Shown one piece after another: positions 1 through 11,977 of a stretch of 11,977 nt of DNA. Source of the DNA: an uncultured Candidatus Marinamargulisbacteria bacterium (GTDB lineage: Bacteria; Margulisbacteria; Marinamargulisbacteria; GCA-2716485; CAXFGY01); contig CAXFGY010000030.1 in NCBI GenBank assembly GCA_964002605.1, forward strand, positions 1 to 11,977, given 5' to 3'. The position numbers were made by a program, and so were the translations under genes. Position 1 is the stretch's first letter, and each line of letters begins with the position of its first letter. The notes under the pieces are model-generated. The model saw only the letters and a list, made by a program, of their open reading frames with translations. It did not search any database and was not told the DNA's origin.

Positions 1-121
1 CAGCGCACCATAACGAAGGTGAAAATTGTGAAGATTAGGCATTTCGCGACAGAGCTACTTTAATTTATTCAAGATTGATCTTTATTTATTTAATCTTATT
101 TATTTTTCAGCTTAAGATTGA

Positions 122-1867
122 TTATTTCAAACTTTTATCATTTTTTTGTTTTTCAAACAAATAATTAAGTTTTTTTTGTTGCGCTTGCAATTGTCTTGTT
201 CTCATATTCAATACTTTATTGGTTTTTAACAATTCTTTCTGTAACTCTTTGAGAGACTGACTAATCACTCTCTTGGGATACAAATCATAATATAAATAAT
301 CCACCTTCTCTTGCTGCGTTTTAACTAATTCTTTTTCATTAAAAATGATATCTTGTTTTTCTTTTAATTGAGCCTGATAATTATTAATATTGTTTTTTTC
401 TTTTTTGATTGCAATCACAATCTTTTCACGTTTTACTTTTGAATCATTAATTTTCTTTCTAATTTCAATTTTATTTTTAACTGATAAAACGGACCTATTC
501 GATTCGTATTGCTTTTTGTTAGCGAGTAATTGCTTCTGCTCTTCGTTTTTTAACTGATATTTTTTTTCATAAGTCCTAATACTATTTTGCGACCGTTGCA
601 ATAATTTCTTTAATTTAGTTATTTGCCGCTGACCTTTTATTTGGCGCCTTAACAACCTATTTAACTCTTTTTTTTCAACTTTTAATAACATTTTCAACTT
701 TTTCCTATCTGCCTTCAATTGACTATCTCGAATACTTTTTTGACCTTCACTTATCAGCTTTAACTGTATTAATTTACTTTTGGTTCTACTGAATAACGCT
801 GATATCGTTTGCTGATATGCGTCTATTTTTTTGATTTTTTTCTTATACCCATTTATTGCTGCTTCTGTTGACTTTATTTTTTTTGAAATACCCAATTGAC
901 TTTGCTTATATCTTGTTTTTCTTTGATTAAATAAACTTAAGGAAATATAGTGCATCTTGTCGTAATAAATTACTCCTGTCTGCTCATAGGCATAACTCAA
1001 CTTAATCCCTTTAACTTTTAAATTTAATCCTACTGATTTTCGCATTACTGTTTCATCTAAATGCAACATGGTACGCAAACCAAACAATCCTTCAATATAA
1101 GGGAAATGTTGATGTTTTATCGCAATTCCAGCTGCATAAAATAAGGGATATTTTTCGTACTGAGTTAACTGAAAATGAATTGATGATTCTATATTTTTGT
1201 AATTGCTTTTTTTAGAGCTATTAATAAACAGTTTAAATGGCAAGTCCTCCCCTGACCGACCATCAGAATATCTCATATTTAATCCTGGAAATATGTTATG
1301 AACTCCAACTCCTAACTGATATCCAGACTTAATAAAATATACCCCAAAGTCACTATTGATTCCTTGTCCAACAATATTATATATTTCTGAATGCAGTATT
1401 TTTATTGATGCGCCTAAACTAATATTTTGCAGAAGTGCCATGCTTCCCGCCACATAATACTTACTATTATAATATGAATAAGGGGCTGCTGAACTCAAAA
1501 TAATATTATTAACTGCTGAATTATTATTGTTTATTGTTGTTTGTTGAATTCCTTTGATACCTAACGCTGCATAACCCAGTCCGATTACAAAGTTTTTGTA
1601 CGATTGGGATACACTAAGGTTTTGGACTGATACATCCTGAATGGTTGTTGTATAAAAGGTATCAATAGACCACTTAACTTGATGGTCTAATTGTGCTGGA
1701 TTTACAAATACAGCCTGTGCGGTTTTTAAATTTGAATTAATTCCACCCAATGCAATTGACTCAGCAGATACCCCTAAATCTGTTATATCAAGTATGTTTT
1801 CAGCTTTTGACTGAATTGCTAAAATACTGACTATGATAAATATACAAATACAATCACTAAACTTCAT
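122..1867 (-). CDS. Outer-membrane beta-barrel protein (copy A) with a FadL/PorV/PorP-like N-terminal plug motif. It is a paralog of the 7849..8814 gene. It also carries a ~265-aa Lys/Gln/Glu-rich predicted coiled-coil C-terminal extension.
   Basis: The N-terminus is a signal peptide (MKFSDCICIFIIVSILAIQSKA). The motif DITDLGVSAESIALGG...NPAQL aligns with the FadL-family hatch pattern S-x4-A-x2-G-x4-A-x2-A-x5-NP and is shared nearly verbatim with the 7849..8814 protein. The two proteins are collinear for ~315 aa. Strands alternate and the barrel ends ...HYISLSLF, a terminal aromatic as in OM barrels. After that comes K/Q/E-rich low-complexity sequence. An RBS GAGGA sits 4 nt upstream of the ATG at 1865-1867. 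The gene begins 24 nt downstream of the 1892..3382 gene. Confidence 0.6.
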   Translation of the reverse strand: MKFSDCICIFIIVSILAIQSKAENILDITDLGVSAESIALGGINSNLKTAQAVFVNPAQLDHQVKWSIDTFYTTTIQDVSVQNLSVSQSYKNFVIGLGYAALGIKGIQQTTINNNNSAVNNIILSSAAPYSYYNSKYYVAGSMALLQNISLGASIKILHSEIYNIVGQGINSDFGVYFIKSGYQLGVGVHNIFPGLNMRYSDGRSGEDLPFKLFINSSKKSNYKNIESSIHFQLTQYEKYPLFYAAGIAIKHQHFPYIEGLFGLRTMLHLDETVMRKSVGLNLKVKGIKLSYAYEQTGVIYYDKMHYISLSLFNQRKTRYKQSQLGISKKIKSTEAAINGYKKKIKKIDAYQQTISALFSRTKSKLIQLKLISEGQKSIRDSQLKADRKKLKMLLKVEKKELNRLLRRQIKGQRQITKLKKLLQRSQNSIRTYEKKYQLKNEEQKQLLANKKQYESNRSVLSVKNKIEIRKKINDSKVKREKIVIAIKKEKNNINNYQAQLKEKQDIIFNEKELVKTQQEKVDYLYYDLYPKRVISQSLKELQKELLKTNKVLNMRTRQLQAQQKKLNYLFEKQKNDKSLK

Positions 1868-1891: not shown

Positions 1892-3382
1892 TTACTTTTT
1901 ACGCGGTATTACTCCTAATTTTGTTTTATGAACGACTTCTCCAGCTAACACCAATAAAATACTATATCCACCAACAGCCATATGATGAAACTCATCACTC
2001 AAAACTGTTATTTCACTATACCAATAGGTACTATCCTGATAATTTACTAAATTACCTTTTTGAAATGCTTCTTTCTTAACATGTAACTGCCCTAACATAT
2101 CAAATATATACACGATAAACCTTGCATCATCATTAATTTGATTGCCATAATATAGACCCAGCCGCAAGTCCTCTCCTTGTTCAATTGGGCTTGGATAAGC
2201 ATAAAAATGGTCAACCCCAGTATTATGAACTTCTGTAGTATCCAGTCCTTTATTTTCTTCAAAAATATGTCCTTGTGAATATAGCTGACTCAGATTCCAA
2301 CTACAATTTAATGCTGTTTCTGGTAACGTAACATGATCAAATTTGCCAATAATTTCTGTAAATTCAAATAACTGATAACTTCGGTTGCAAACTGATTCAG
2401 ATTCATTTAAGGGATCTGATTGAGACATTAGTATTGCTTGATTTATACTCGCATTTACAAGTGTCCCCTTTTTTTCTTCTTCATTTTCAATCATTAACTT
2501 GCCCCCATGGATCTGTAACCGATACCCAGAAACCAGGCTATTTAGCGGCATTTTTAATTGTGCCTCAGCAGCAACAATCAACTGCCCTTCCCCTTCTATT
2601 TTTACATTGATATTTGCAACTGATTTTAATATTCCTTTCTCTATTTCTAAACTTTTATTCACTATTGGTGTTTCAACAAATAATTGGCCTGCCTGCAATG
2701 TTATTTTGTTTGCTGTTTCCTTAATTTTAGTTTCTTGATTTAAAACGTTATCCCTTAATAATATTTGAATTGCACTATAATTATTAATGACTAACTCTTT
2801 TGCTTTTTGCTTTTCATGTTCATTATCAAACATACTTTTATCTACCCATTCTAATAGTATATTTGGAATATTTTCATTATCTGTTAAAAAATCACCCCAA
2901 TTAACTTTATCTGTAATTTTTAATTTATCTAATAAATCAATAATTTCTTTTCGAGACGCTTTAGTTATTTCACTTGGCAAATCATAATATTGGATAGGCG
3001 TCTGAAATGTCCCGGATGGCATTATTAATTTCCCTTCATTATCTACAATACTTACGGCACCTTGTGCTGAAGAAATTGTAGTCGTTTTTCCATTAAATAG
3101 TTCTATGGACTTTGTGATCTCCCCCTTTTTTTTAATCTCAATATTTCTTTGTTGAACCGCTTCTTTAATCGTCTGTTGAACAGGTTTTGTTAATGGATCT
3201 ATTTCATCAATAAGATAACGATCATTCCTATATTTAATTGGATCAAGTAAGTCAGTATTCGTCACAACTGCTTTACCAGTCAATTCAACACTATACAAAA
3301 ACCCATCAATAGTTCCTAAAAAATTAGACCCCATTAATAACGATACTATTAAACATCTTAAAACACGATAACTAATTATCAT
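1892..3382 (-). CDS. Secreted protein (cargo copy A, 496 aa). Its C-terminal ~430 aa are homologous to the C-terminal module of the large 8841..11977 protein. It lacks the repeat array. The last ~100 aa resemble a T9SS-type C-terminal sorting (CTD) Ig-like domain.
   Basis: The N-terminal signal peptide is MIISYRVLRCLIVSLLMGSNFLG. Collinear similarity to the large protein runs through MPSGTFQTPIQYYDLPSEI~MPKTKGEIISVYDFPETI, then CNRSYQLFEFTEIIGKFDHVTLPE~CSQSYTLFEFSTINGNFDEVKLPE, then CSWNLSQLYSQG~CSWNLSELYTQG. The CTD-like tail is YPSP...FIVYIFDMLGQLHVK...FHHMAVGGYSILL...GEVV...KLGVIP. Confidence 0.6.
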   Translation of the reverse strand: MIISYRVLRCLIVSLLMGSNFLGTIDGFLYSVELTGKAVVTNTDLLDPIKYRNDRYLIDEIDPLTKPVQQTIKEAVQQRNIEIKKKGEITKSIELFNGKTTTISSAQGAVSIVDNEGKLIMPSGTFQTPIQYYDLPSEITKASRKEIIDLLDKLKITDKVNWGDFLTDNENIPNILLEWVDKSMFDNEHEKQKAKELVINNYSAIQILLRDNVLNQETKIKETANKITLQAGQLFVETPIVNKSLEIEKGILKSVANINVKIEGEGQLIVAAEAQLKMPLNSLVSGYRLQIHGGKLMIENEEEKKGTLVNASINQAILMSQSDPLNESESVCNRSYQLFEFTEIIGKFDHVTLPETALNCSWNLSQLYSQGHIFEENKGLDTTEVHNTGVDHFYAYPSPIEQGEDLRLGLYYGNQINDDARFIVYIFDMLGQLHVKKEAFQKGNLVNYQDSTYWYSEITVLSDEFHHMAVGGYSILLVLAGEVVHKTKLGVIPRKK

Positions 3383-6943: not shown

Positions 6944-7834
6944 ATGGCTCAAACTGTTAATTTTAATTCTGATATGTTCAATAAACTTTCTAAATATATT
7001 CCTATACTATTTATTATTATTCTTTTACTCCCTGCTTCATTTGTTATTATTGATGCAGGCAAAGTAGGCGTTGTTAAACGACTGGGTGCTGTTCAACCGC
7101 TTTCTTTACCTGAAGGCTTTCACCTTAAAATCCCTTTTGCCGATCAGATTATTAAAGTTGATGTTAGACTAATGAATAGTCGCTCTAATGCGCTCTCTTC
7201 TTCCAAAGATTTACAAACTGTTCGTACAACAGTTGAAGTTCAATACTCTATCAATGGGACAATGGCACCTTACACCTATCAAAAAGTGGGTCTTAACCGC
7301 CAAATTCAAGCCCGTGTTATTGAACCTGCCATTGGCGAATCTGTCAAAGCCGTTACTGCCCAATATACTGCTGAAGAACTCATTACAAAGCGTGGCACTG
7401 TCAAACTCCAAATTCAAGGGGCTATTCAAAACTATATTAATGCAACATTAGAAAAGAAAAAGATTAAAGAAGGCATTGAAATTGCTAATGTTGCGATTAC
7501 TGACTTTAATTTCTCTGATGAGTTTAATCGTGCAATTGAAATGAAAGTAAAAGCGGAACAAGAAGCACTACAAGCTAAAAATGAAAAATTAAAACGAATT
7601 ACTCAAGCTGAAGCGGCTGCCTCTGAAAAACAATTGGCTGCTGATGCTTCTGCCTATGAAATTTCTGTCGGATCTAAAGCGCGAGCTGATGCAATTAAAC
7701 GTGAAGCAATGGCATTACGCAACAACCCGGAATTAATCCAACTACGAATCGCTGAAAAGTGGGACGGTAAACTCCCTCACTTTAACGGTAGCGATGCTGT
7801 GCCTTTATTGAATATTAATCCCAAACAAAATTAA
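6944..7834 (+). CDS. SPFH/band-7 domain protein of the prohibitin/HflC-like family, with an N-terminal membrane anchor.
   Basis: A TM segment (YIPILFIIILLLPASFVIIDA) is followed by the SPFH core GKVGVVKRLGAV...LKIPFADQIIKVDVR...LQTVRTTVEVQY. The C-terminal part is an Ala/Glu/Lys-rich coiled coil (KAEQEALQAKNEKLKRITQAEAAASEKQLAADASAYE) typical of prohibitins. A strong RBS AAGGGAG at 6931-6937 lies 6 nt before the ATG. Confidence 0.85.
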   Translation: MAQTVNFNSDMFNKLSKYIPILFIIILLLPASFVIIDAGKVGVVKRLGAVQPLSLPEGFHLKIPFADQIIKVDVRLMNSRSNALSSSKDLQTVRTTVEVQYSINGTMAPYTYQKVGLNRQIQARVIEPAIGESVKAVTAQYTAEELITKRGTVKLQIQGAIQNYINATLEKKKIKEGIEIANVAITDFNFSDEFNRAIEMKVKAEQEALQAKNEKLKRITQAEAAASEKQLAADASAYEISVGSKARADAIKREAMALRNNPELIQLRIAEKWDGKLPHFNGSDAVPLLNINPKQN

Positions 7835-7848
7835 TCATTTATTTTATT

Positions 7849-8814
7849 CTAGTGATGAACACTTCTTTTTTTACTAAATAAACTTAAAGAAAAATAATGC
7901 ATCTGGTTATACATATGCGCATTGCTACTCTCAAACGCATAGCTAAATTTAATTCCTCTAACCGTTAAATTGAGCCCTACTGATTTACGCATTATTGTAT
8001 CATCTAAATGTAATACACTACGTGTACCCAGTAACCCTTCAATATAAGGAAACCCCTGATACAATATCGTTGCTCCGCCTGCATACAACAATGGACTTGC
8101 CTTTGATTTATTAAGCTGTAGATGAAACTTTGACTCTATTCTTTTAAACACTACTTTTTTAGTCCCATTAATAAAAAGCTTTAATGGCAGCTCTTCATCC
8201 ACATAACTGGTCCCACTTGCATCACTGTAATTCATTTTGAACATTGGAAAAATATTATGGATACTAACTGCCAATTGATAACTAGGTTTAATATATTGTA
8301 AGCCAAAATCACTATTAAACCCTTTACCCGATATCGTCTCTAATGTTGTGCTGAACCATTTCATTGATCCGCCTACAACAATATGATCCAACACTTTATA
8401 ACTTGTTCCAAAATATAGCGTATCATAACTATATGAATATGAATCAGGGGATCTAACTACTTTTTTACCTGTTAAACCATCTTCTTGACTTGTTTTTGGG
8501 ATGTCATTCATTCCTGTTCGTGTCCAACCTAAACCAAAAGAATATAATTTATAAGCCTTCGATAGGCTGATATTTTGAATATTTACATCCTCAATCGTAT
8601 TCGTATGAAATGCATCTGCTGACCAATTCAGCGTATTATCCAGGAATGATGGATTGATAAAAATTGCATGAGCTGTTTTTGCACTTGAATGTGATCCACC
8701 AAGAGCAATAGACTCTGCCGACACACCAAGGTCAGTCACATCAAACGCAACTTCTGCATATAATGATATTGTCATTATCATTATTCCGCTAATTATTTTT
8801 ATTAAAAATCTCAT
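7849..8814 (-). CDS. Outer-membrane beta-barrel protein (copy B, 321 aa), paralog of the 122..1867 barrel without the Lys-rich tail. The plug motif is FadL/PorV/PorP-like.
   Basis: The signal peptide is MRFLIKIISGIMIMTISLYA. The motif DVTDLGVSAESIALGG...NPSFL is shared with copy A. Similarity is collinear over the full length, for example KLFINGTKK~KLFINSSKK, RKSVGLNLTVRGIKFSYA~RKSVGLNLKVKGIKLSYA and MHYFSLSLF~MHYISLSLF. An RBS AAGGGGG (plus 8821-8827) lies 6 nt upstream of the ATG. The gene begins 26 nt downstream of the large cargo gene. Confidence 0.6.
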   Translation of the reverse strand: MRFLIKIISGIMIMTISLYAEVAFDVTDLGVSAESIALGGSHSSAKTAHAIFINPSFLDNTLNWSADAFHTNTIEDVNIQNISLSKAYKLYSFGLGWTRTGMNDIPKTSQEDGLTGKKVVRSPDSYSYSYDTLYFGTSYKVLDHIVVGGSMKWFSTTLETISGKGFNSDFGLQYIKPSYQLAVSIHNIFPMFKMNYSDASGTSYVDEELPLKLFINGTKKVVFKRIESKFHLQLNKSKASPLLYAGGATILYQGFPYIEGLLGTRSVLHLDDTIMRKSVGLNLTVRGIKFSYAFESSNAHMYNQMHYFSLSLFSKKRSVHH

Positions 8815-8840: not shown

Positions 8841-11800
8841 TTAGTTTTTAGTAGTTGGCTTTACTCCTAATTTTATTCTTCTAATCACTTCACCATCTTT
8901 TTCTATAATTACACTATAAGCTCCCACTGACATATGATGAAATTTAGTTGAATCAATTTTTATTTCATGATAGTAGTAACGTTCTTGTGTATTATCGATA
9001 TTAAATTCTGTTCGGTTAATCATTCCTCCATTTAATTCTTGGATATCTTTAACATGTAATCTACCCAATATATCAAATATATATATTGTAATTTCATGTG
9101 AGCTATCTTTTAAATCTGATCCAAAATAAATTGCGACAGTTAGTTCCTCTCCTTGAGGTAAAGGACTAGGATGAAGAAGGATTTCTTGAATTCCCCCGCC
9201 AGCAATATTACTAGCAACTTGAACATCATTGCTTTCTTGATAAATAATTCCTTGTGTATATAATTCACTTAGATTCCAACTACACCCTTCTTCTGCTTCA
9301 GGTAGTTTGACTTCATCAAAATTACCATTAATAGTTGAGAATTCAAATAATGTATAACTTTGACTACATTCTGTTTGACTAGAATGACCTGAATCTAATA
9401 TAGACATCATAATCGATGCATTTATATCTGAACTTTTAGATAGTGTACCACCTGTTGTTGTTGATGACTCATTACTATCAATTAATAATATCCCTCCATC
9501 AATCGCTAAGGTATTTCCTTTAAGCGTATTATTCAATGATAATTTAAGTTTAGAACCTGGTCCTATTTTTAATAAAGCGCCTACTTTTATTTCATTTTTA
9601 GCGGAGGACATCTTTAATGTTCCTCCATCTAAGCTAACACTTTTACTGCTTGATGATAATTCTAAGCTCCCTTGCTTTAAAGCAACCTGATCACTCGTTT
9701 CAGATACTTTTGTTGTTCTACTAATTACTTTTCCAGTTAATACTTCTATAATATCTTCATAATAATTAGACATTAAGTTAATCGCTTGATCTTTTTCTGT
9801 TTTTGTAAATGTTTTATTGTCTAATATTAACGCTGTTAAAGTATCATTATTTGGAATTGCATCAATATCATTAATGATTGAAGATAAATAACCGTCTTTA
9901 GTTAATTGGACTTTCTCTAACATATTGATAATTCCTAATCTTGTACTATTATTTTTAGTGTCTATTGTTTCTGGGAAATCATAAACACTTATTATTTCTC
10001 CTTTGGTTTTAGGCATACTCACTAATTCACTCGTTTCTGGATCCATTCCCAATGTACCTTCAATTGTTTTTGATGTTGTCAGCACACCGTTTATAGTCTG
10101 TACTTCTGTTGTTATTCCATCACTGATCTGAATTGTTTTTCTTTCAATAACAACGCCATTTGAATCTTGTTTTTCTGATGATGTTATCTCTGTAGTCGGA
10201 TCCCAAGTATTAATTGTTGTTGTGACTATATTTTTATTATTATCTTTTTCTAATATAGTAACACTATTTCCTGCCGTAATTTCTTCTGTAATATTGATAG
10301 TAACGCCATTACTATCTTGTAACACTGTTTCTATGCTATTTCCAAGCGTTGTTTCTATCTCAATTCTAGTGATTTCATGAGTCATTGTCTTATTAACTTT
10401 TGTTGCAACCACTGTCCCATCGCTATGCTTTTCTGTCGTTACTTCTTGAATATTTAATGTAATTCCATTTGGTAATTTTTGAACTTTTGTTAATTTATTT
10501 CCAGAAACTATTTCAACTTCTATTCCCATGATATTTTCGTTACTTTTAACACCATTGTATATGGTTCGTGTCAACTTATTATTTGTTGATATTAATTCTA
10601 CTGTCGTTTTTAGAATAGTATCTTTGGTTTCTCCATACTCAACTTTTGTAGTCAAATTATTACTCACTACTGTTTCAATCCTACCAACCACTTTTCCTTT
10701 TTGGTTGATTTGTACTGATATTTCCTTTGACTGACTTGAATCAACTATATTTCCAATTTTTGATATTTGGGTTTGCTTTAATATTGCACTTATTCCAGGT
10801 TTACCCACATATATTGTTGTTAATATCTGACCGCCTATTTTTTCAACAACAATACTTTGGATAATATTTGTATCACTAATTTCCCCGCTATAAAATATAG
10901 TGGTTACTTTATTACCCTCTGTTACTTTAATCTCACTACTTAACACATTCCCATTAACATCTTTTTCTATTGTTGTAATCGTATTATCTATTTCTATTTC
11001 CTCTACTATACTCAGTATATCCCCCAGTGGGCTTTGTTTTACTGTTGTTATACTATTTCCAGATACCGTCACTTCAGTAATTCCTGTCATATTACTCATA
11101 TTAGTATCGCCATTATAATCTACTGTTATTTCAATATTTCCAGAAGTCGTTATTGATTGACTATTGATTATATTATCTAAACTGATACTGCCGTTATAAT
11201 ATTTAGTTATTATTGTATTACCTGATGTTATGACTTCTGTACTCCCTATAATAAAACTAGTGTTCACTGCTCCTGCATAATTAATAGTTTGAATACGATC
11301 CGATAATGTAATGACTTTAGTACTACTACTCAATTGCCCTAAATTGTCTTTTAATGTCGTTATTGTGATATTATCTGAAGTTAAAACTTCAATAACCTCT
11401 ATAAGATTACCTGTTCCATCTGGACCATCAAACCTCATTGTAGTTACTAAATTACCGGATGTAATTATTTCTTTACTTCCAATAATATTACCCTCGCTAT
11501 TTTGTACGTTTTCAATTTGACTATTTCCTGATGATATAACTTGTCTTACTCCACTTAAATTATCTGGACTCACTACACCTGTATAAACTGATACAGTTGT
11601 TGTATTTCCTGATGTCACTGTTTCTGTACTTTGTAATACTGAAACTGGGTTTCCATTACTATCTACCTCATATGTTGAATTAATCACTATTCCGTCTGGT
11701 TCAGTAGTGACAGAATCTATACTCACAACTTCTCCATTTTGATCAATTTGAGTTGTCGTTACTTGATTTCCATCACTGGATGTCGTTGCCACTGTGGTTC

Positions 11801-11977
11801 CCGTTGCGGTTGCACCAGTTGTATTTGGTAATCCTGTACTTGCATCCGTAGTCACTGAACCATCATAACTTGTTGTGGTCACGGTTCCGCCATCACTGGA
11901 TGTCGTTGCCACTGTGGTTCCCGTTGCGGTTGCACCAGTTGTATTTGGTAATCCTGTACTTGCATCCGTAGTCACTG
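8841..11977 (-). CDS. Large secreted or surface repeat protein (cargo copy B, more than 1044 aa). It is 5'-truncated by the window edge. From the N-terminus it has Thr-rich 40-aa tandem repeats, then ~20 copies of a ~28-aa TSGN beta-type repeat, then a conserved ~430-aa C-terminal module ending in a T9SS-CTD-like domain.
   Basis: The ORF is open to the window end; the track's initial M is only a GTG in an open frame. The repeat consensus is approximately (E/Q)VITSGNxITTxxYxGxxSxxNIIxS, recurring from about residue 100 to residue 650. The C-terminal module is homologous to the 496-aa protein. The CTD-like end is HPSPLPQGEEL...ITIYIFDILGRLHVK...FHHMSVGAYSVII...GEVIRRIKLGVKP. Confidence 0.6.
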   Translation of the reverse strand, partial: VTTDASTGLPNTTGATATGTTVATTSSDGGTVTTTSYDGSVTTDASTGLPNTTGATATGTTVATTSSDGNQVTTTQIDQNGEVVSIDSVTTEPDGIVINSTYEVDSNGNPVSVLQSTETVTSGNTTTVSVYTGVVSPDNLSGVRQVISSGNSQIENVQNSEGNIIGSKEIITSGNLVTTMRFDGPDGTGNLIEVIEVLTSDNITITTLKDNLGQLSSSTKVITLSDRIQTINYAGAVNTSFIIGSTEVITSGNTIITKYYNGSISLDNIINSQSITTSGNIEITVDYNGDTNMSNMTGITEVTVSGNSITTVKQSPLGDILSIVEEIEIDNTITTIEKDVNGNVLSSEIKVTEGNKVTTIFYSGEISDTNIIQSIVVEKIGGQILTTIYVGKPGISAILKQTQISKIGNIVDSSQSKEISVQINQKGKVVGRIETVVSNNLTTKVEYGETKDTILKTTVELISTNNKLTRTIYNGVKSNENIMGIEVEIVSGNKLTKVQKLPNGITLNIQEVTTEKHSDGTVVATKVNKTMTHEITRIEIETTLGNSIETVLQDSNGVTINITEEITAGNSVTILEKDNNKNIVTTTINTWDPTTEITSSEKQDSNGVVIERKTIQISDGITTEVQTINGVLTTSKTIEGTLGMDPETSELVSMPKTKGEIISVYDFPETIDTKNNSTRLGIINMLEKVQLTKDGYLSSIINDIDAIPNNDTLTALILDNKTFTKTEKDQAINLMSNYYEDIIEVLTGKVISRTTKVSETSDQVALKQGSLELSSSSKSVSLDGGTLKMSSAKNEIKVGALLKIGPGSKLKLSLNNTLKGNTLAIDGGILLIDSNESSTTTGGTLSKSSDINASIMMSILDSGHSSQTECSQSYTLFEFSTINGNFDEVKLPEAEEGCSWNLSELYTQGIIYQESNDVQVASNIAGGGIQEILLHPSPLPQGEELTVAIYFGSDLKDSSHEITIYIFDILGRLHVKDIQELNGGMINRTEFNIDNTQERYYYHEIKIDSTKFHHMSVGAYSVIIEKDGEVIRRIKLGVKPTTKN
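11770..11977. repeat. Perfect 120-nt (40-aa) tandem direct repeat inside the large cargo gene. It very likely continues beyond the window edge.
   Basis: 88 nt at 11770-11857 are identical to 11890-11977, which is the end of the window. The period is 120 nt. The encoded unit is TTDASTGLPNTTGATATGTTVATTSSDG plus ~12 variable residues. Confidence 0.9.

What the first reader, a model, noticed from the sequence alone, without database searches (positions are those of the whole stretch)
125..919. Outer-membrane barrel with a ~265-aa poly-Lys coiled-coil C-terminal tail.
Barrel copy A continues past its last beta-strand (…HYISLSLF) into a 265-residue K/Q/E/R/L-rich low-complexity segment with heptad-like periodicity, for example KLIQLKLISEGQKSIRDSQLKADRKKLKMLLKVEKKELNRLLRRQIKGQRQITKLKKLLQ. 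Copy B stops 8 aa after the same strand. Even-stranded OM barrels end in the periplasm, so this would be a long periplasmic or cell-envelope-spanning helix, comparable to TolA domain II or TonB. Such a helix is very unusual fused to a FadL/PorV-like barrel. It could tether the barrel to peptidoglycan or an inner-membrane partner, or act as a ruler. The difference between the two paralogs suggests the tail is a recent functional add-on.
Basis: seen in the sequence. Interest (0 to 1): 0.6.

Follow-up and report, generated by a model that had tools for sequence, protein, structure and literature searches.

The report
Outer-membrane barrel with basic helical tail
An uncultured marine bacterium (probably Margulisbacteria) makes an outer-membrane barrel protein that really does carry a 268-residue, strongly positively charged helical tail, most likely a periplasmic stalk that anchors or stabilises the barrel; the design is already known for adhesin anchors of related bacteria, but not on this kind of barrel.

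Summary
ORF 122..1867(-) encodes 581 aa: signal peptide, a FadL/PorV-type barrel (res 23-313) and a 268-aa tail (nt 125-928). The tail is K 21 %, L 12 %, Q 11 %, net charge +48, pI 10.3, with one Pro, so it is not "poly-Lys".

The tail is not an artefact. A second assembly is 99.97 % identical. A 47 %-identical orthologue found in several assemblies has a 267-aa tail that aligns with one gap. The frame is under purifying selection.

AlphaFold predicts two long helices with a central hinge. Heptad signal is significant but patchy. Hairpin versus extended coil is undecided.

About 9 % of the family representatives listed carry C-terminal extensions: basic coils (210-420 aa, all net +35 to +51), Ig-like domains, or SLH cell-wall-binding domains. 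This places the C-terminus in the periplasm.

The barrels usually follow a large protein ending in a T9SS-CTD-like domain.

The tail is old and modular, not a recent add-on. It has no TolA or TonB homology.

The closest precedent is the periplasmic coiled-coil/SLH domains after the barrel of trimeric autotransporters in Terrabacteria.

Best reading: a periplasmic stalk that anchors or stabilises a cargo-holding barrel. This is a new variant of a known kind, of moderate interest.

The parts
122..1867 (-). Gene for the 581-aa barrel-plus-tail protein (stop codon at 122-124).
   Evidence: ORF list. The identical protein is called on the JGI contig and on an independent ENA assembly that is 99.97 % identical over 11,931 nt.
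1802..1867 (-). Predicted signal peptide, residues 1-22 (MKFSDCICIFIIVSILAIQSKA | ENIL).
   Evidence: Read from the sequence as a hydrophobic N-terminus. It is a low-confidence helix in the AF2 model. The cleavage site is inferred, not predicted with a tool.
929..1801 (-). Outer-membrane beta-barrel domain, residues 23-313. It is a distant relative of PorV/PorQ with a FadL-type fold.
   Evidence: NCBIfam T9SS_PorQ E 8.7e-10, 38 bits, below the 220-bit cutoff. 34 of 35 family members hit the PorQ model and 32 of 35 hit PorV_fam. AF2 pLDDT is mostly 70-93. Foldseek top hits are TbuX, TodX, CymD, FadL and OmpG, E 6e-8 to 2e-6.
125..928 (-). C-terminal tail, residues 314-581 (268 aa). It is basic, helical and coiled-coil-like.
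   Evidence: Composition and charge. Heptad signal. AF2 predicts all-helix. 33 % identity with one gap to the 267-aa tail of P0002, and dN/dS about 0.37. No known domain.
506..898 (-). Helical arm 1, residues about 324-454 (net charge of 316-455 is +31). The full-length model has a kink at 379-383.
   Evidence: AF2 full-length model: H324-378 and H384-454. Tail-only model: one helix covering 316-455. Charge.
482..505 (-). Central hinge, residues 455-462 (ESNRSVLS). It is the only consistent helix break and lies near the tail midpoint.
   Evidence: Break in both AF2 models; pLDDT is 43 there in the tail-only model.
140..481 (-). Helical arm 2, residues about 463-576 (net charge of 463-581 is +16). 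It contains the single conserved proline (P531, nt 275-277) in the motif LYPKRVI.
   Evidence: AF2. The Pro is invariant in the alignment with P0002. The motif recurs in the coil ORF of L096.
1892..3382 (-). Upstream partner ('cargo A', 496 aa), 24 nt from the barrel gene. Its last ~100 residues (nt 1892-2203) form a T9SS-CTD-like sorting domain.
   Evidence: Sub-threshold Por_Secre_tail hits, TIGR04183 E 1.4e-3 and 0.028 on the C-terminal fragment. The C-terminal module is conserved in five cargo proteins. A terminator-like site lies upstream at 3479-3455.
7849..8814 (-). Paralogous barrel B (321 aa) without a tail.
   Evidence: 49 % identical to barrel A. PorV_fam E 4.8e-13, below cutoff. 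Groups with P0003 in the tree.
8841..11975 (-). 'Cargo B', over 1044 aa and cut by the window end. It has the same C-terminal module (CTD-like part at nt 8841-9179).
   Evidence: PF18962 Por_Secre_tail E 3.4e-3, below cutoff.
1..54 (.). Start of a conserved non-coding element that follows the tail-bearing gene here and in the orthologous locus.
   Evidence: 98 % identical to L002 3195-3248, although the flanking genes are only about 68 % identical. The full element is seen in L085. No Rfam or tRNA match.

Best explanation
The protein is the outer-membrane partner of a large secreted surface protein. A PorV/PorQ-like, FadL-fold barrel sits in the outer membrane. The upstream gene product ends in a T9SS-CTD-like domain that the barrel probably holds or sorts; this step is inferred from gene pairing.

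The barrel's C-terminus emerges in the periplasm and continues as a 268-residue, strongly basic (+48) alpha-helical stalk. The stalk has two arms of about 115-140 residues joined by a central hinge. It would be about 20 nm long if folded back as a hairpin, and up to about 39 nm if extended or paired with other chains.

I propose that the stalk reaches into the cell-wall layer and binds the anionic wall, or another anionic envelope surface, electrostatically. This would stabilise the barrel-cargo complex, restrict its lateral movement and resist pull-out. The coil would then be the non-SLH version of a periplasmic anchoring module that relatives build from SLH or Ig-like domains.

Shown here:
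- The tail is real, conserved and translated.
- It is helical and basic.
- The extensions are family-wide, including SLH domains.
- Cargo and barrel genes are paired.

Inferred:
- Periplasmic location.
- Wall binding.
- The anchoring or stabilising role.
- The oligomeric state.
For: Real and selected:
- An independent assembly is 99.97 % identical.
- Orthologue P0002 (586 aa) is found in three assemblies, and again on contig L095.
- The tails align 267/268 aa with one gap at 33 % identity. Hydrophobic positions coincide at 60 sites against 30 expected. dN/dS is about 0.37, and 0 of 2000 shuffles stay open.

Helical:
- Both AF2 models are all-helix with a hinge at 455-462.
- Periodicity and heptad registers are shared with the orthologue.

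Periplasmic anchor theme:
- The fold matches 14-stranded FadL-family barrels.
- Relatives P0087, P0131 and P0009 carry SLH domains after the same last strand (PF00395, E 1e-10 to 1e-33). P0131 passes the PorV_fam cutoff.
- Every coil tail in the family is basic, net +35 to +51 and pI 10.1-10.5.

Cargo pairing:
- A CTD-like cargo lies directly upstream in the window (twice), L002/L095, L088 (an 11,135-aa gene), L090 and L093.

Precedent:
- In Terrabacteria nearly all trimeric autotransporters have a periplasmic coiled coil or coil+SLH right after the barrel. Deleting the coil in Veillonella parvula destabilises the adhesin (10.64898/2026.01.22.700529).

Host:
- The best ilvC match is a Marinamargulisbacteria MAG at 76 %.
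- P0087 is annotated as Candidatus Margulisiibacteriota.
Against: - No wall-binding motif or known domain is present in the tail.
- In V. parvula the coil-only periplasmic domains did not confer peptidoglycan-dependent localisation, so a coil may only stabilise or oligomerise.
- Both arms are positive (+31 and +16). That disfavours self-association unless a polyanion neutralises them.
- Copy B and other relatives work without a tail, even with large cargos.
- P0155 has a tail but no cargo gene next to it.
- Tail length varies from 210 to about 420 aa across the family, and a possibly related coil ORF in L096 is 1003 aa. That is too long for a simple periplasm-spanning ruler.
- The strand count could not be read from coordinates, so the even-stranded topology rests on fold matches and on the SLH fusions.
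Confidence: 0.45

Rival explanations
1. The tail is a folding, stability or oligomerisation module with no wall contact. The periplasmic coil helps BAM-dependent insertion, or makes the barrels dimerise or trimerise, and protects the protein from periplasmic proteases. This is what is proposed for coil-only periplasmic domains of Terrabacterial trimeric autotransporters.
For: In V. parvula, deleting the coil causes degradation, yet the coil gives no peptidoglycan-dependent localisation. The tail has hydrophobic heptad seams. It has no binding domain.
Against: 268 residues with net +48 is far more than is needed for stability, since autotransporter coils are mostly under 100 aa. The uniformly high positive charge in all tails argues for a polyanionic ligand and against homotypic pairing. 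Tailless paralogues fold without it.
Confidence: 0.25
2. The tail is a trans-envelope link. It spans the periplasm to contact the inner membrane, an inner-membrane or periplasmic partner, or a motor or track. This would couple the surface cargo to the cell interior, in the manner of TolA, TonB or the SprB/SprF gliding system.
For: The length (20-39 nm) is enough to reach the inner membrane; this is an inference. Basic amphipathic helices bind anionic lipids. One relative (P0099) has a Pro-rich linker ending in a TM-like helix. The pairing of a giant adhesin-like cargo with a PorP/PorQ-like barrel recalls sprB-sprF. A Band_7/SPFH membrane protein gene is repeatedly adjacent.
Against: No TolA or TonB domains are present. 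No partner has been identified. Band_7 is convergently oriented and may reflect plain synteny. Core T9SS or gliding genes were not seen in any fetched locus. SLH-bearing relatives point to the wall rather than the inner membrane.
Confidence: 0.12
3. The tail lies flat on a membrane surface as a set of amphipathic, lysine-flanked helices. It would bind the inner leaflet of the outer membrane and shape or stabilise the membrane locally, rather than projecting as a stalk.
For: A hydrophobic stripe with periodicity 3.4-3.55 flanked by Lys. Discontinuous heptads. Isolated helices in the AF2 models, with no packed hairpin detected.
Against: The hydrophobic fraction (about 30 %) and the a/d pattern fit coiled coils. 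The exact length conservation with the orthologue and the replacement by SLH or Ig-like domains in relatives fit a projecting module better.
Confidence: 0.1
4. The tail is an artefact: a frameshift or chimeric assembly joining a barrel gene to an unrelated coiled-coil gene, or a non-translated open frame.
For: The contig comes from a short-read metagenome and the tail DNA has A-runs. In a related contig (L096) a barrel and a long coil ORF are in different frames.
Against: A second assembly has the identical ORF. An orthologue found in several further assemblies keeps one continuous frame of the same length. At least three more clusters (P0155, P0008, P0007) have barrel-coil fusions. There is purifying selection and 0 of 2000 shuffles stay open.
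Confidence: 0.02

Closest known systems
C-terminal periplasmic domains of trimeric autotransporter adhesins in Terrabacteria (Veillonella VtaA/E/F coil type, VtaG coil+SLH type, Synechococcus long coil-only type); bioRxiv 10.64898/2026.01.22.700529
   Same: - The extension starts right after the last strand of an OM barrel that anchors a large surface protein.
- It comes in two flavours, coiled coil only or with an SLH wall-binding domain.
- It is restricted to Terrabacteria-type diderms, and long coil-only versions occur in cyanobacteria, the sister group of Margulisbacteria.
   Different: - The barrel here is a monomer-type 14-strand FadL/PorV-like fold, not a YadA-type trimeric 12-strand anchor.
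- The cargo is a separate polypeptide.
- The coil is 268 aa against mostly under 100 aa.
- It is extremely basic.
- There is no evidence for trimerisation.
PorV / PorQ / PorP-SprF barrels of the type IX secretion system (Bacteroidota)
   Same: - There is sub-threshold but consistent sequence similarity to the PorQ and PorV_fam models.
- The fold is FadL-like.
- The gene is adjacent to a large protein with a CTD-like C-terminus, as with sprB-sprF.
   Different: - Scores are far below the curated cutoffs.
- The host is probably Margulisbacteria, outside the FCB group.
- No core T9SS genes were seen.
- To my knowledge the known PorV, PorQ and PorP proteins end at the barrel and have no periplasmic tail.
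OmpM (diderm Firmicutes) and SlpA (Deinococcus): SLH - coiled-coil stalk - beta-barrel OM tethers
   Same: An OM barrel is joined to a periplasmic coiled-coil stalk. Family relatives of the window protein add SLH domains. Terrabacterial envelope context.
   Different: The domain order is inverted, with the barrel N-terminal and the stalk C-terminal. This protein has no SLH domain. The barrel family is different, and there is no evidence for trimers.
TolA domain II / TonB linker
   Same: A long, charged, low-complexity periplasmic segment of comparable length.
   Different: TolA and TonB are anchored in the inner membrane and end in conserved C-terminal domains. None of these features is present. 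TonB's linker is Pro-rich, not helical.

Membership tests
PorV/PorQ family (NCBIfam NF033709 / NF033711) | Sequence score at or above the curated cutoff | tested here: not met
   Barrel A scores 38 bits on T9SS_PorQ against a 220-bit cutoff. Copy B scores 49 bits on PorV_fam against 90. Only the distant relative P0131 passes, at 96 against 90.
PorV/PorQ family (NCBIfam NF033709 / NF033711) | 14-stranded FadL-type OM barrel fold | tested here: met
   The AF2 model (pLDDT 76) has as its top Foldseek PDB hits TbuX, TodX, CymD, FadL and OmpG, E 6e-8 to 2e-6. The strand count was not read from coordinates.
PorV/PorQ family (NCBIfam NF033709 / NF033711) | Works with cargo carrying a T9SS C-terminal sorting domain | tested here: inconclusive
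   Adjacent cargos end in a CTD-like domain, but the Por_Secre_tail and FlgD_ig hits are all below cutoff, E 1e-3 to 0.1. The module is conserved in five cargos.
PorV/PorQ family (NCBIfam NF033709 / NF033711) | Genome encodes core T9SS (SprA/Sov, PorK/L/M/N) | not testable with these tools
   Only 12-19 kb contigs of this organism are available. No relative was found in the genome collection.
TolA / TonB periplasm-spanning proteins | N-terminal inner-membrane anchor plus conserved C-terminal domain (TolA_C / TonB_C) | tested here: not met
   The N-terminus is a signal peptide followed by an OM barrel. There is no Pfam or NCBIfam hit in the tail even at E <= 5.
OmpM/SlpA-type SLH tethers | SLH domain binding wall polymer | tested here: not met
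   There is no SLH domain in the window protein. SLH is present in relatives P0087, P0131 and P0009.
OmpM/SlpA-type SLH tethers | Periplasmic coiled-coil stalk joined to the OM barrel | tested here: inconclusive
   A helical stalk is predicted and heptad signal is significant in parts. The domain order is inverted and the oligomeric state is unknown.
Periplasmic C-terminal domains of Terrabacterial autotransporters | Coil or coil+SLH directly after the last barrel strand | tested here: met
   The tail starts 1 residue after ...HYISLSLF. The same two flavours occur in the family. The feature is defined.
Periplasmic C-terminal domains of Terrabacterial autotransporters | YadA-type trimeric anchor barrel | tested here: not met
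   There is no YadA_anchor hit. The fold is FadL-like.
Canonical coiled coil | Continuous heptad register and defined oligomer | tested here: inconclusive
Single alpha-helix (ER/K) domain | Roughly balanced, very high E and K/R content with i/i+4 salt bridges | tested here: not met
   D+E is 9.7 % against K+R 27.6 %, and about 30 % of residues are hydrophobic.

The most novel reading that the evidence does not exclude
Margulisbacteria and their relatives may have a previously undescribed envelope connector. In it, dedicated PorV/PorQ-like barrels each hold a giant CTD-tagged surface protein and are wired to the cell wall, or across the periplasm, by interchangeable C-terminal modules: a polycationic coiled coil, an Ig-like domain, SLH domains or a TM helix. 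That would amount to an 'inverted OmpM' combined with a T9SS-like sorting step outside the FCB superphylum. The polycationic coil would be a new kind of wall- or membrane-binding stalk, possibly switched on or off by frameshifting at an A-run, as the L096 locus hints.
Probability: 0.25. Interest if true: 0.7.

Novelty: new variant of a known kind. Interest (0 to 1): 0.48.

Why it matters
How diderm bacteria outside the Proteobacteria hold their outer membrane and surface adhesins to the cell wall is an open question. Only OmpM-type tethers and autotransporter periplasmic domains have been studied so far.

This locus shows the same design (barrel, then periplasmic coil or SLH) arising on an unrelated, PorV/PorQ-like barrel that is paired with giant CTD-tagged proteins. 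The host lineage is the sister group of Cyanobacteria.

If the mechanism holds, it does three things:
- It extends the rule that Terrabacterial OM anchors need a periplasmic domain.
- It suggests that T9SS-like cargo-barrel sorting exists outside the FCB group.
- It offers a testable polycationic wall-binding stalk.

It also corrects automatic annotation. One such protein is labelled 'chromosome segregation ATPase' because of its coil.

Tried and rejected
- **Genome-collection scan with the barrel alignment.** It found no relative, so taxonomy rests on ilvC (76 % to a Marinamargulisbacteria MAG, against 71 % to the next hit, a MAG labelled Rickettsiales) and on the NCBI label of relative P0087.
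- **Word-indexed protein searches.** They were swamped by K-rich words. The full-length query gave 4 hits, the barrel profile gave 16, and the tail profile gave none, not even itself, so that last result is uninformative.
- **PDB sequence searches.** The barrel profile and the tail gave nothing relevant.
- **Multimer prediction.** Not available.
- **Single-alpha-helix domain.** Rejected on composition.
- **Repeat-expansion origin.** Rejected, with no tandem repeats beyond one weak 34-nt TTAATT-like array.
- **TolA/TonB homology.** Rejected.
- **Rfam and tRNA scans of the conserved downstream element.** Negative.
- **SPOR-like ends in the L096 coil ORF.** I suspected these by eye, but Pfam gave no hit, so I make no claim.
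Full report
**1. Observation**

The minus-strand ORF 122..1867 encodes 581 aa. It has a hydrophobic N-terminal signal-like segment (residues 1-22) and a beta-rich domain that ends ...KMHYISLSLF at residue 313. Residues 314-581 (268 aa, nt 125-928) form the tail.

The paralogue at 7849..8814 (321 aa, 49 % identical) stops 8 residues after the same strand.

The tail composition is K 21 %, L 12 %, Q 11 %, I 8 %, N/S/E about 7 % each and R 6 %. It has 74 basic against 26 acidic residues, giving net +48 and pI 10.3. It has one Pro and four Gly, and the longest K/R run is 3. "Poly-Lys" is therefore an overstatement; "polycationic helical" fits better.

Hydrophobic residues recur with a period of 3.4-3.55; 0 and 2 of 500 shuffles reach that power in the window tail and the orthologue tail. 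A fixed heptad register is significant in 26 % of 28-residue windows, against 4 % in the barrel. There are no tandem DNA repeats in the tail apart from one weak 34-nt TTAATT-like array.

**2. Is the tail really part of the protein?**

Yes, on four lines of evidence:
- The window is a JGI Tara Oceans contig. An independent ENA assembly of another run (L085, 19 kb) is 99.97 % identical across 11,931 nt and carries the same 581-aa ORF.
- An orthologue, P0002 (586 aa, barrel 61 % identical), occurs in three assemblies and again on contig L095. Its 267-aa tail aligns with the window tail with a single gap at 33 % identity. Hydrophobic positions coincide twice as often as expected (60 against 30). 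dN/dS is about 0.37, compared with 0.15 in the barrel; dS is saturated, so these are rough values.
- None of 2000 nucleotide shuffles of the tail keeps the frame open, and the other five frames have 15-34 stops.
- Further barrel-coil fusions exist in more distant clusters: P0155 (521 aa), P0008 (635 aa) and P0007 (740 aa).

**3. What the barrel is**

Pfam finds nothing. NCBIfam gives consistent but sub-threshold matches to the T9SS PorQ and PorV/PorQ family models. Barrel A scores E 8.7e-10 and 38 bits against a cutoff of 220. Of 35 family members, 34 hit the PorQ model and 32 hit PorV_fam.

An AlphaFold2 model built on 14 sequences has pLDDT 76, with the barrel mostly at 70-93. It matches 14-stranded FadL-family channels (TbuX, TodX, CymD, FadL) and OmpG best.

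I could not read strand numbers from coordinates. The even-stranded topology, and hence a periplasmic C-terminus, rests on these fold matches, on general OMP knowledge and on section 4.

**4. Family context**

An exhaustive HMMER scan of 1.84 billion representatives gave 441 hits. Most are 300-320 aa and end at the barrel. About 14 of the 152 listed continue after the same last strand. The extensions are of several kinds:
- Long basic coils: window/P0002, P0155 and P0008.
- A coil plus a roughly 80-aa Ig-like end domain: P0007.
- A short basic linker plus the same Ig-like domain: P0005, P0006 and P0012.
- SLH domains: P0087, P0131 and P0009, with PF00395 E from 1e-10 to 1e-33. P0131 passes the PorV_fam cutoff.
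- A Pro-rich linker ending in a TM-like helix: P0099.

SLH domains bind wall polymers in the periplasm of diderms. Their presence at this position is the strongest evidence here that the C-terminal extension is periplasmic and that the position is used for envelope attachment.

All coil tails are strongly basic, net +35 to +51 and pI 10.1-10.5.

A neighbour-joining tree of the barrel domains pairs A with P0002 (92 % bootstrap) and B with P0003 (80 %). It intersperses extended and tailless members; for example, coil-bearing P0155 and Ig-bearing P0006 are 69 % identical. The tail is therefore old and modular in this clade, and copy B more likely lost it. The "recent add-on" idea is not supported.

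**5. Genomic context**

Barrel A lies 24 nt downstream of a 496-aa protein, and barrel B lies downstream of a protein of more than 1044 aa. Both upstream proteins share a roughly 200-aa C-terminal module with the upstream genes of P0002 (at least 1466 aa), P0008 (an 11,135-aa gene) and P0007. The module ends in a roughly 95-aa domain, YPSP...IYIFDxLGxLxV...VGxY...KLGV. This domain gives sub-threshold hits to the T9SS sorting domain.

The distant SLH-bearing P0131 also follows an 812-aa protein with a FlgD-Ig/CTD-like end, and LpxB lies nearby.

The unit is therefore [quoted passage not shown]. This is reminiscent of sprB-sprF. P0155 is an exception with no cargo gene beside it.

**6. Host**

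The best ilvC match is a Candidatus Marinamargulisbacteria MAG at 76 %; the next hits, labelled Rickettsiales, are at 71 % or lower. Relative P0087 is an NCBI protein from Candidatus Margulisiibacteriota. The genome collection held no barrel relative. I take Margulisbacteria as probable, not proven.

**7. Structure of the tail**

Both AF2 runs predict an all-helical tail. The full-length model has helices 324-378, 384-454, 460-529 and 531-576, with pLDDT 83-92 over about residues 390-510. The tail-only model has two helices, 316-455 and 463-576, and a low-confidence hinge at 456-462.

The hinge is near the midpoint. The two minor kinks (379-383, and 530 just before the conserved P531) lie about 75 residues on either side of it. 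This would fit an antiparallel hairpin about 20 nm long.

Both arms are positive (+31 and +16), and the charge profile is conserved in the orthologue. An ER/K single-helix domain is excluded by composition. No known domain or solved relative matches the tail.

**8. Mechanism**

I favour, at about 0.45, a periplasmic stalk that stabilises and immobilises a cargo-holding barrel by engaging the anionic wall layer. It would be functionally equivalent to the SLH versions in relatives.

The main rival, at about 0.25, is a pure stability or assembly module. This is suggested by V. parvula autotransporters, where coil deletion causes degradation but coil-only domains do not confer peptidoglycan-dependent localisation.

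Less likely readings are a link to the inner membrane or a partner (0.12), surface-lying amphipathic helices (0.10) and an artefact (0.02).

**9. Comparison with known systems**

The closest precedent is the C-terminal periplasmic domain of trimeric autotransporters in Terrabacteria. That domain is a coiled coil or a coil plus SLH, with long coil-only forms in Synechococcus (bioRxiv 10.64898/2026.01.22.700529). Here the same principle appears on a different barrel family, with a separate cargo and a much longer, polycationic coil.

OmpM and SlpA share the barrel-stalk-SLH logic, but in the inverted order. The TolA and TonB likeness is only compositional.

Full-text searches found no paper describing PorV/PorQ-like barrels with SLH or coiled-coil tails. 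This is absence from the library searched, not proof of absence.

**10. Verdict**

The feature is real and conserved. It is a new variant of a known design principle in an uncultured phylum. Interest is moderate (0.48). The system-level reading (section 5 together with the modular anchors) is the more novel part and deserves follow-up.

Noticed in passing
L096 1600-4657 (contig MDSW01190099.1, locus of P0003, the orthologue of tailless copy B): The 'tailless' barrel ORF ends ...ACT AAA AAA TAA. A 1003-aa K/L/E/Q-rich basic coil ORF (net +59, no signal peptide) follows in the -1 frame and is open from nt 1619. An A6-to-A7 change, or a -1 slip on AAA-AAA-TAA, would fuse it to the barrel. hhalign links it weakly to the window tail (probability 59 %, E 9.5e-5), including the LYP(K/E)(K/R)V motif. 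It could be an assembly error, a pseudogene, a phase-variable tract or programmed frameshifting.
   Followed up: partly
window 1892-3382 and 8841-11975; L002, L088, L090, L093, L095: Each barrel usually follows a large protein, up to an 11,135-aa gene in L088. These proteins share a conserved C-terminal module: a two-Cys domain plus a T9SS-CTD/FlgD-Ig-like end. This suggests a cargo-barrel sorting pair outside the FCB superphylum. All CTD hits are below curated cutoffs.
   Followed up: partly
window 1-54; L085 ~11880-12110; L002 3195-3330: A conserved non-coding element follows the tail-bearing gene in both the window organism and the P0002 organism. It is 98 % identical over 54 nt, while the flanking genes are only about 68 % identical. 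The full element contains two direct repeats of about 47 nt (TTTGGCGACATCG...CGACAGTCC). There is no Rfam or tRNA match.
   Followed up: partly
window 6944-7834 (+); L002/L095; L088 9919-10806: A Band_7/SPFH membrane-protein gene sits convergently next to a barrel gene in three lineages. Its product is 97 % (L002) and 88 % (L088) identical to the window protein, although the barrels are only 28-50 % identical. In the relatives the neighbouring barrel is the tail-bearing one; in the window it is tailless copy B. The locus has therefore been rearranged, or the cargo-barrel cassettes exchanged.
   Followed up: partly
P0008 (L088 8001-9908): JGI names this barrel-plus-coil protein 'chromosome segregation ATPase'. 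This appears to be a mis-annotation caused by the coil's resemblance to SMC arms; P0002 also gives a spurious weak SMC_prok_B hit.
   Followed up: yes
P0099 (472 aa) and P0118 (437 aa), family relatives: Some relatives carry P/E/K/V-rich (TonB-linker-like) C-terminal extensions. P0099 ends in a TM-like helix followed by RKP, which could be an inner-membrane anchor or a sorting signal.
   Followed up: no
window 11770-11977: The 5' part of the cargo B gene encodes near-identical T/S/G/A-rich repeats (TTDASTGLPNTTGATATGTTVATTSSDG...). The contig end lies inside this repeat, which probably explains why the assembly breaks here.
   Followed up: no
L085 12144-14083 (beyond the window): Downstream of the tail gene the longer contig encodes a TPR protein and FliG, so the organism is probably flagellated.
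   Followed up: no
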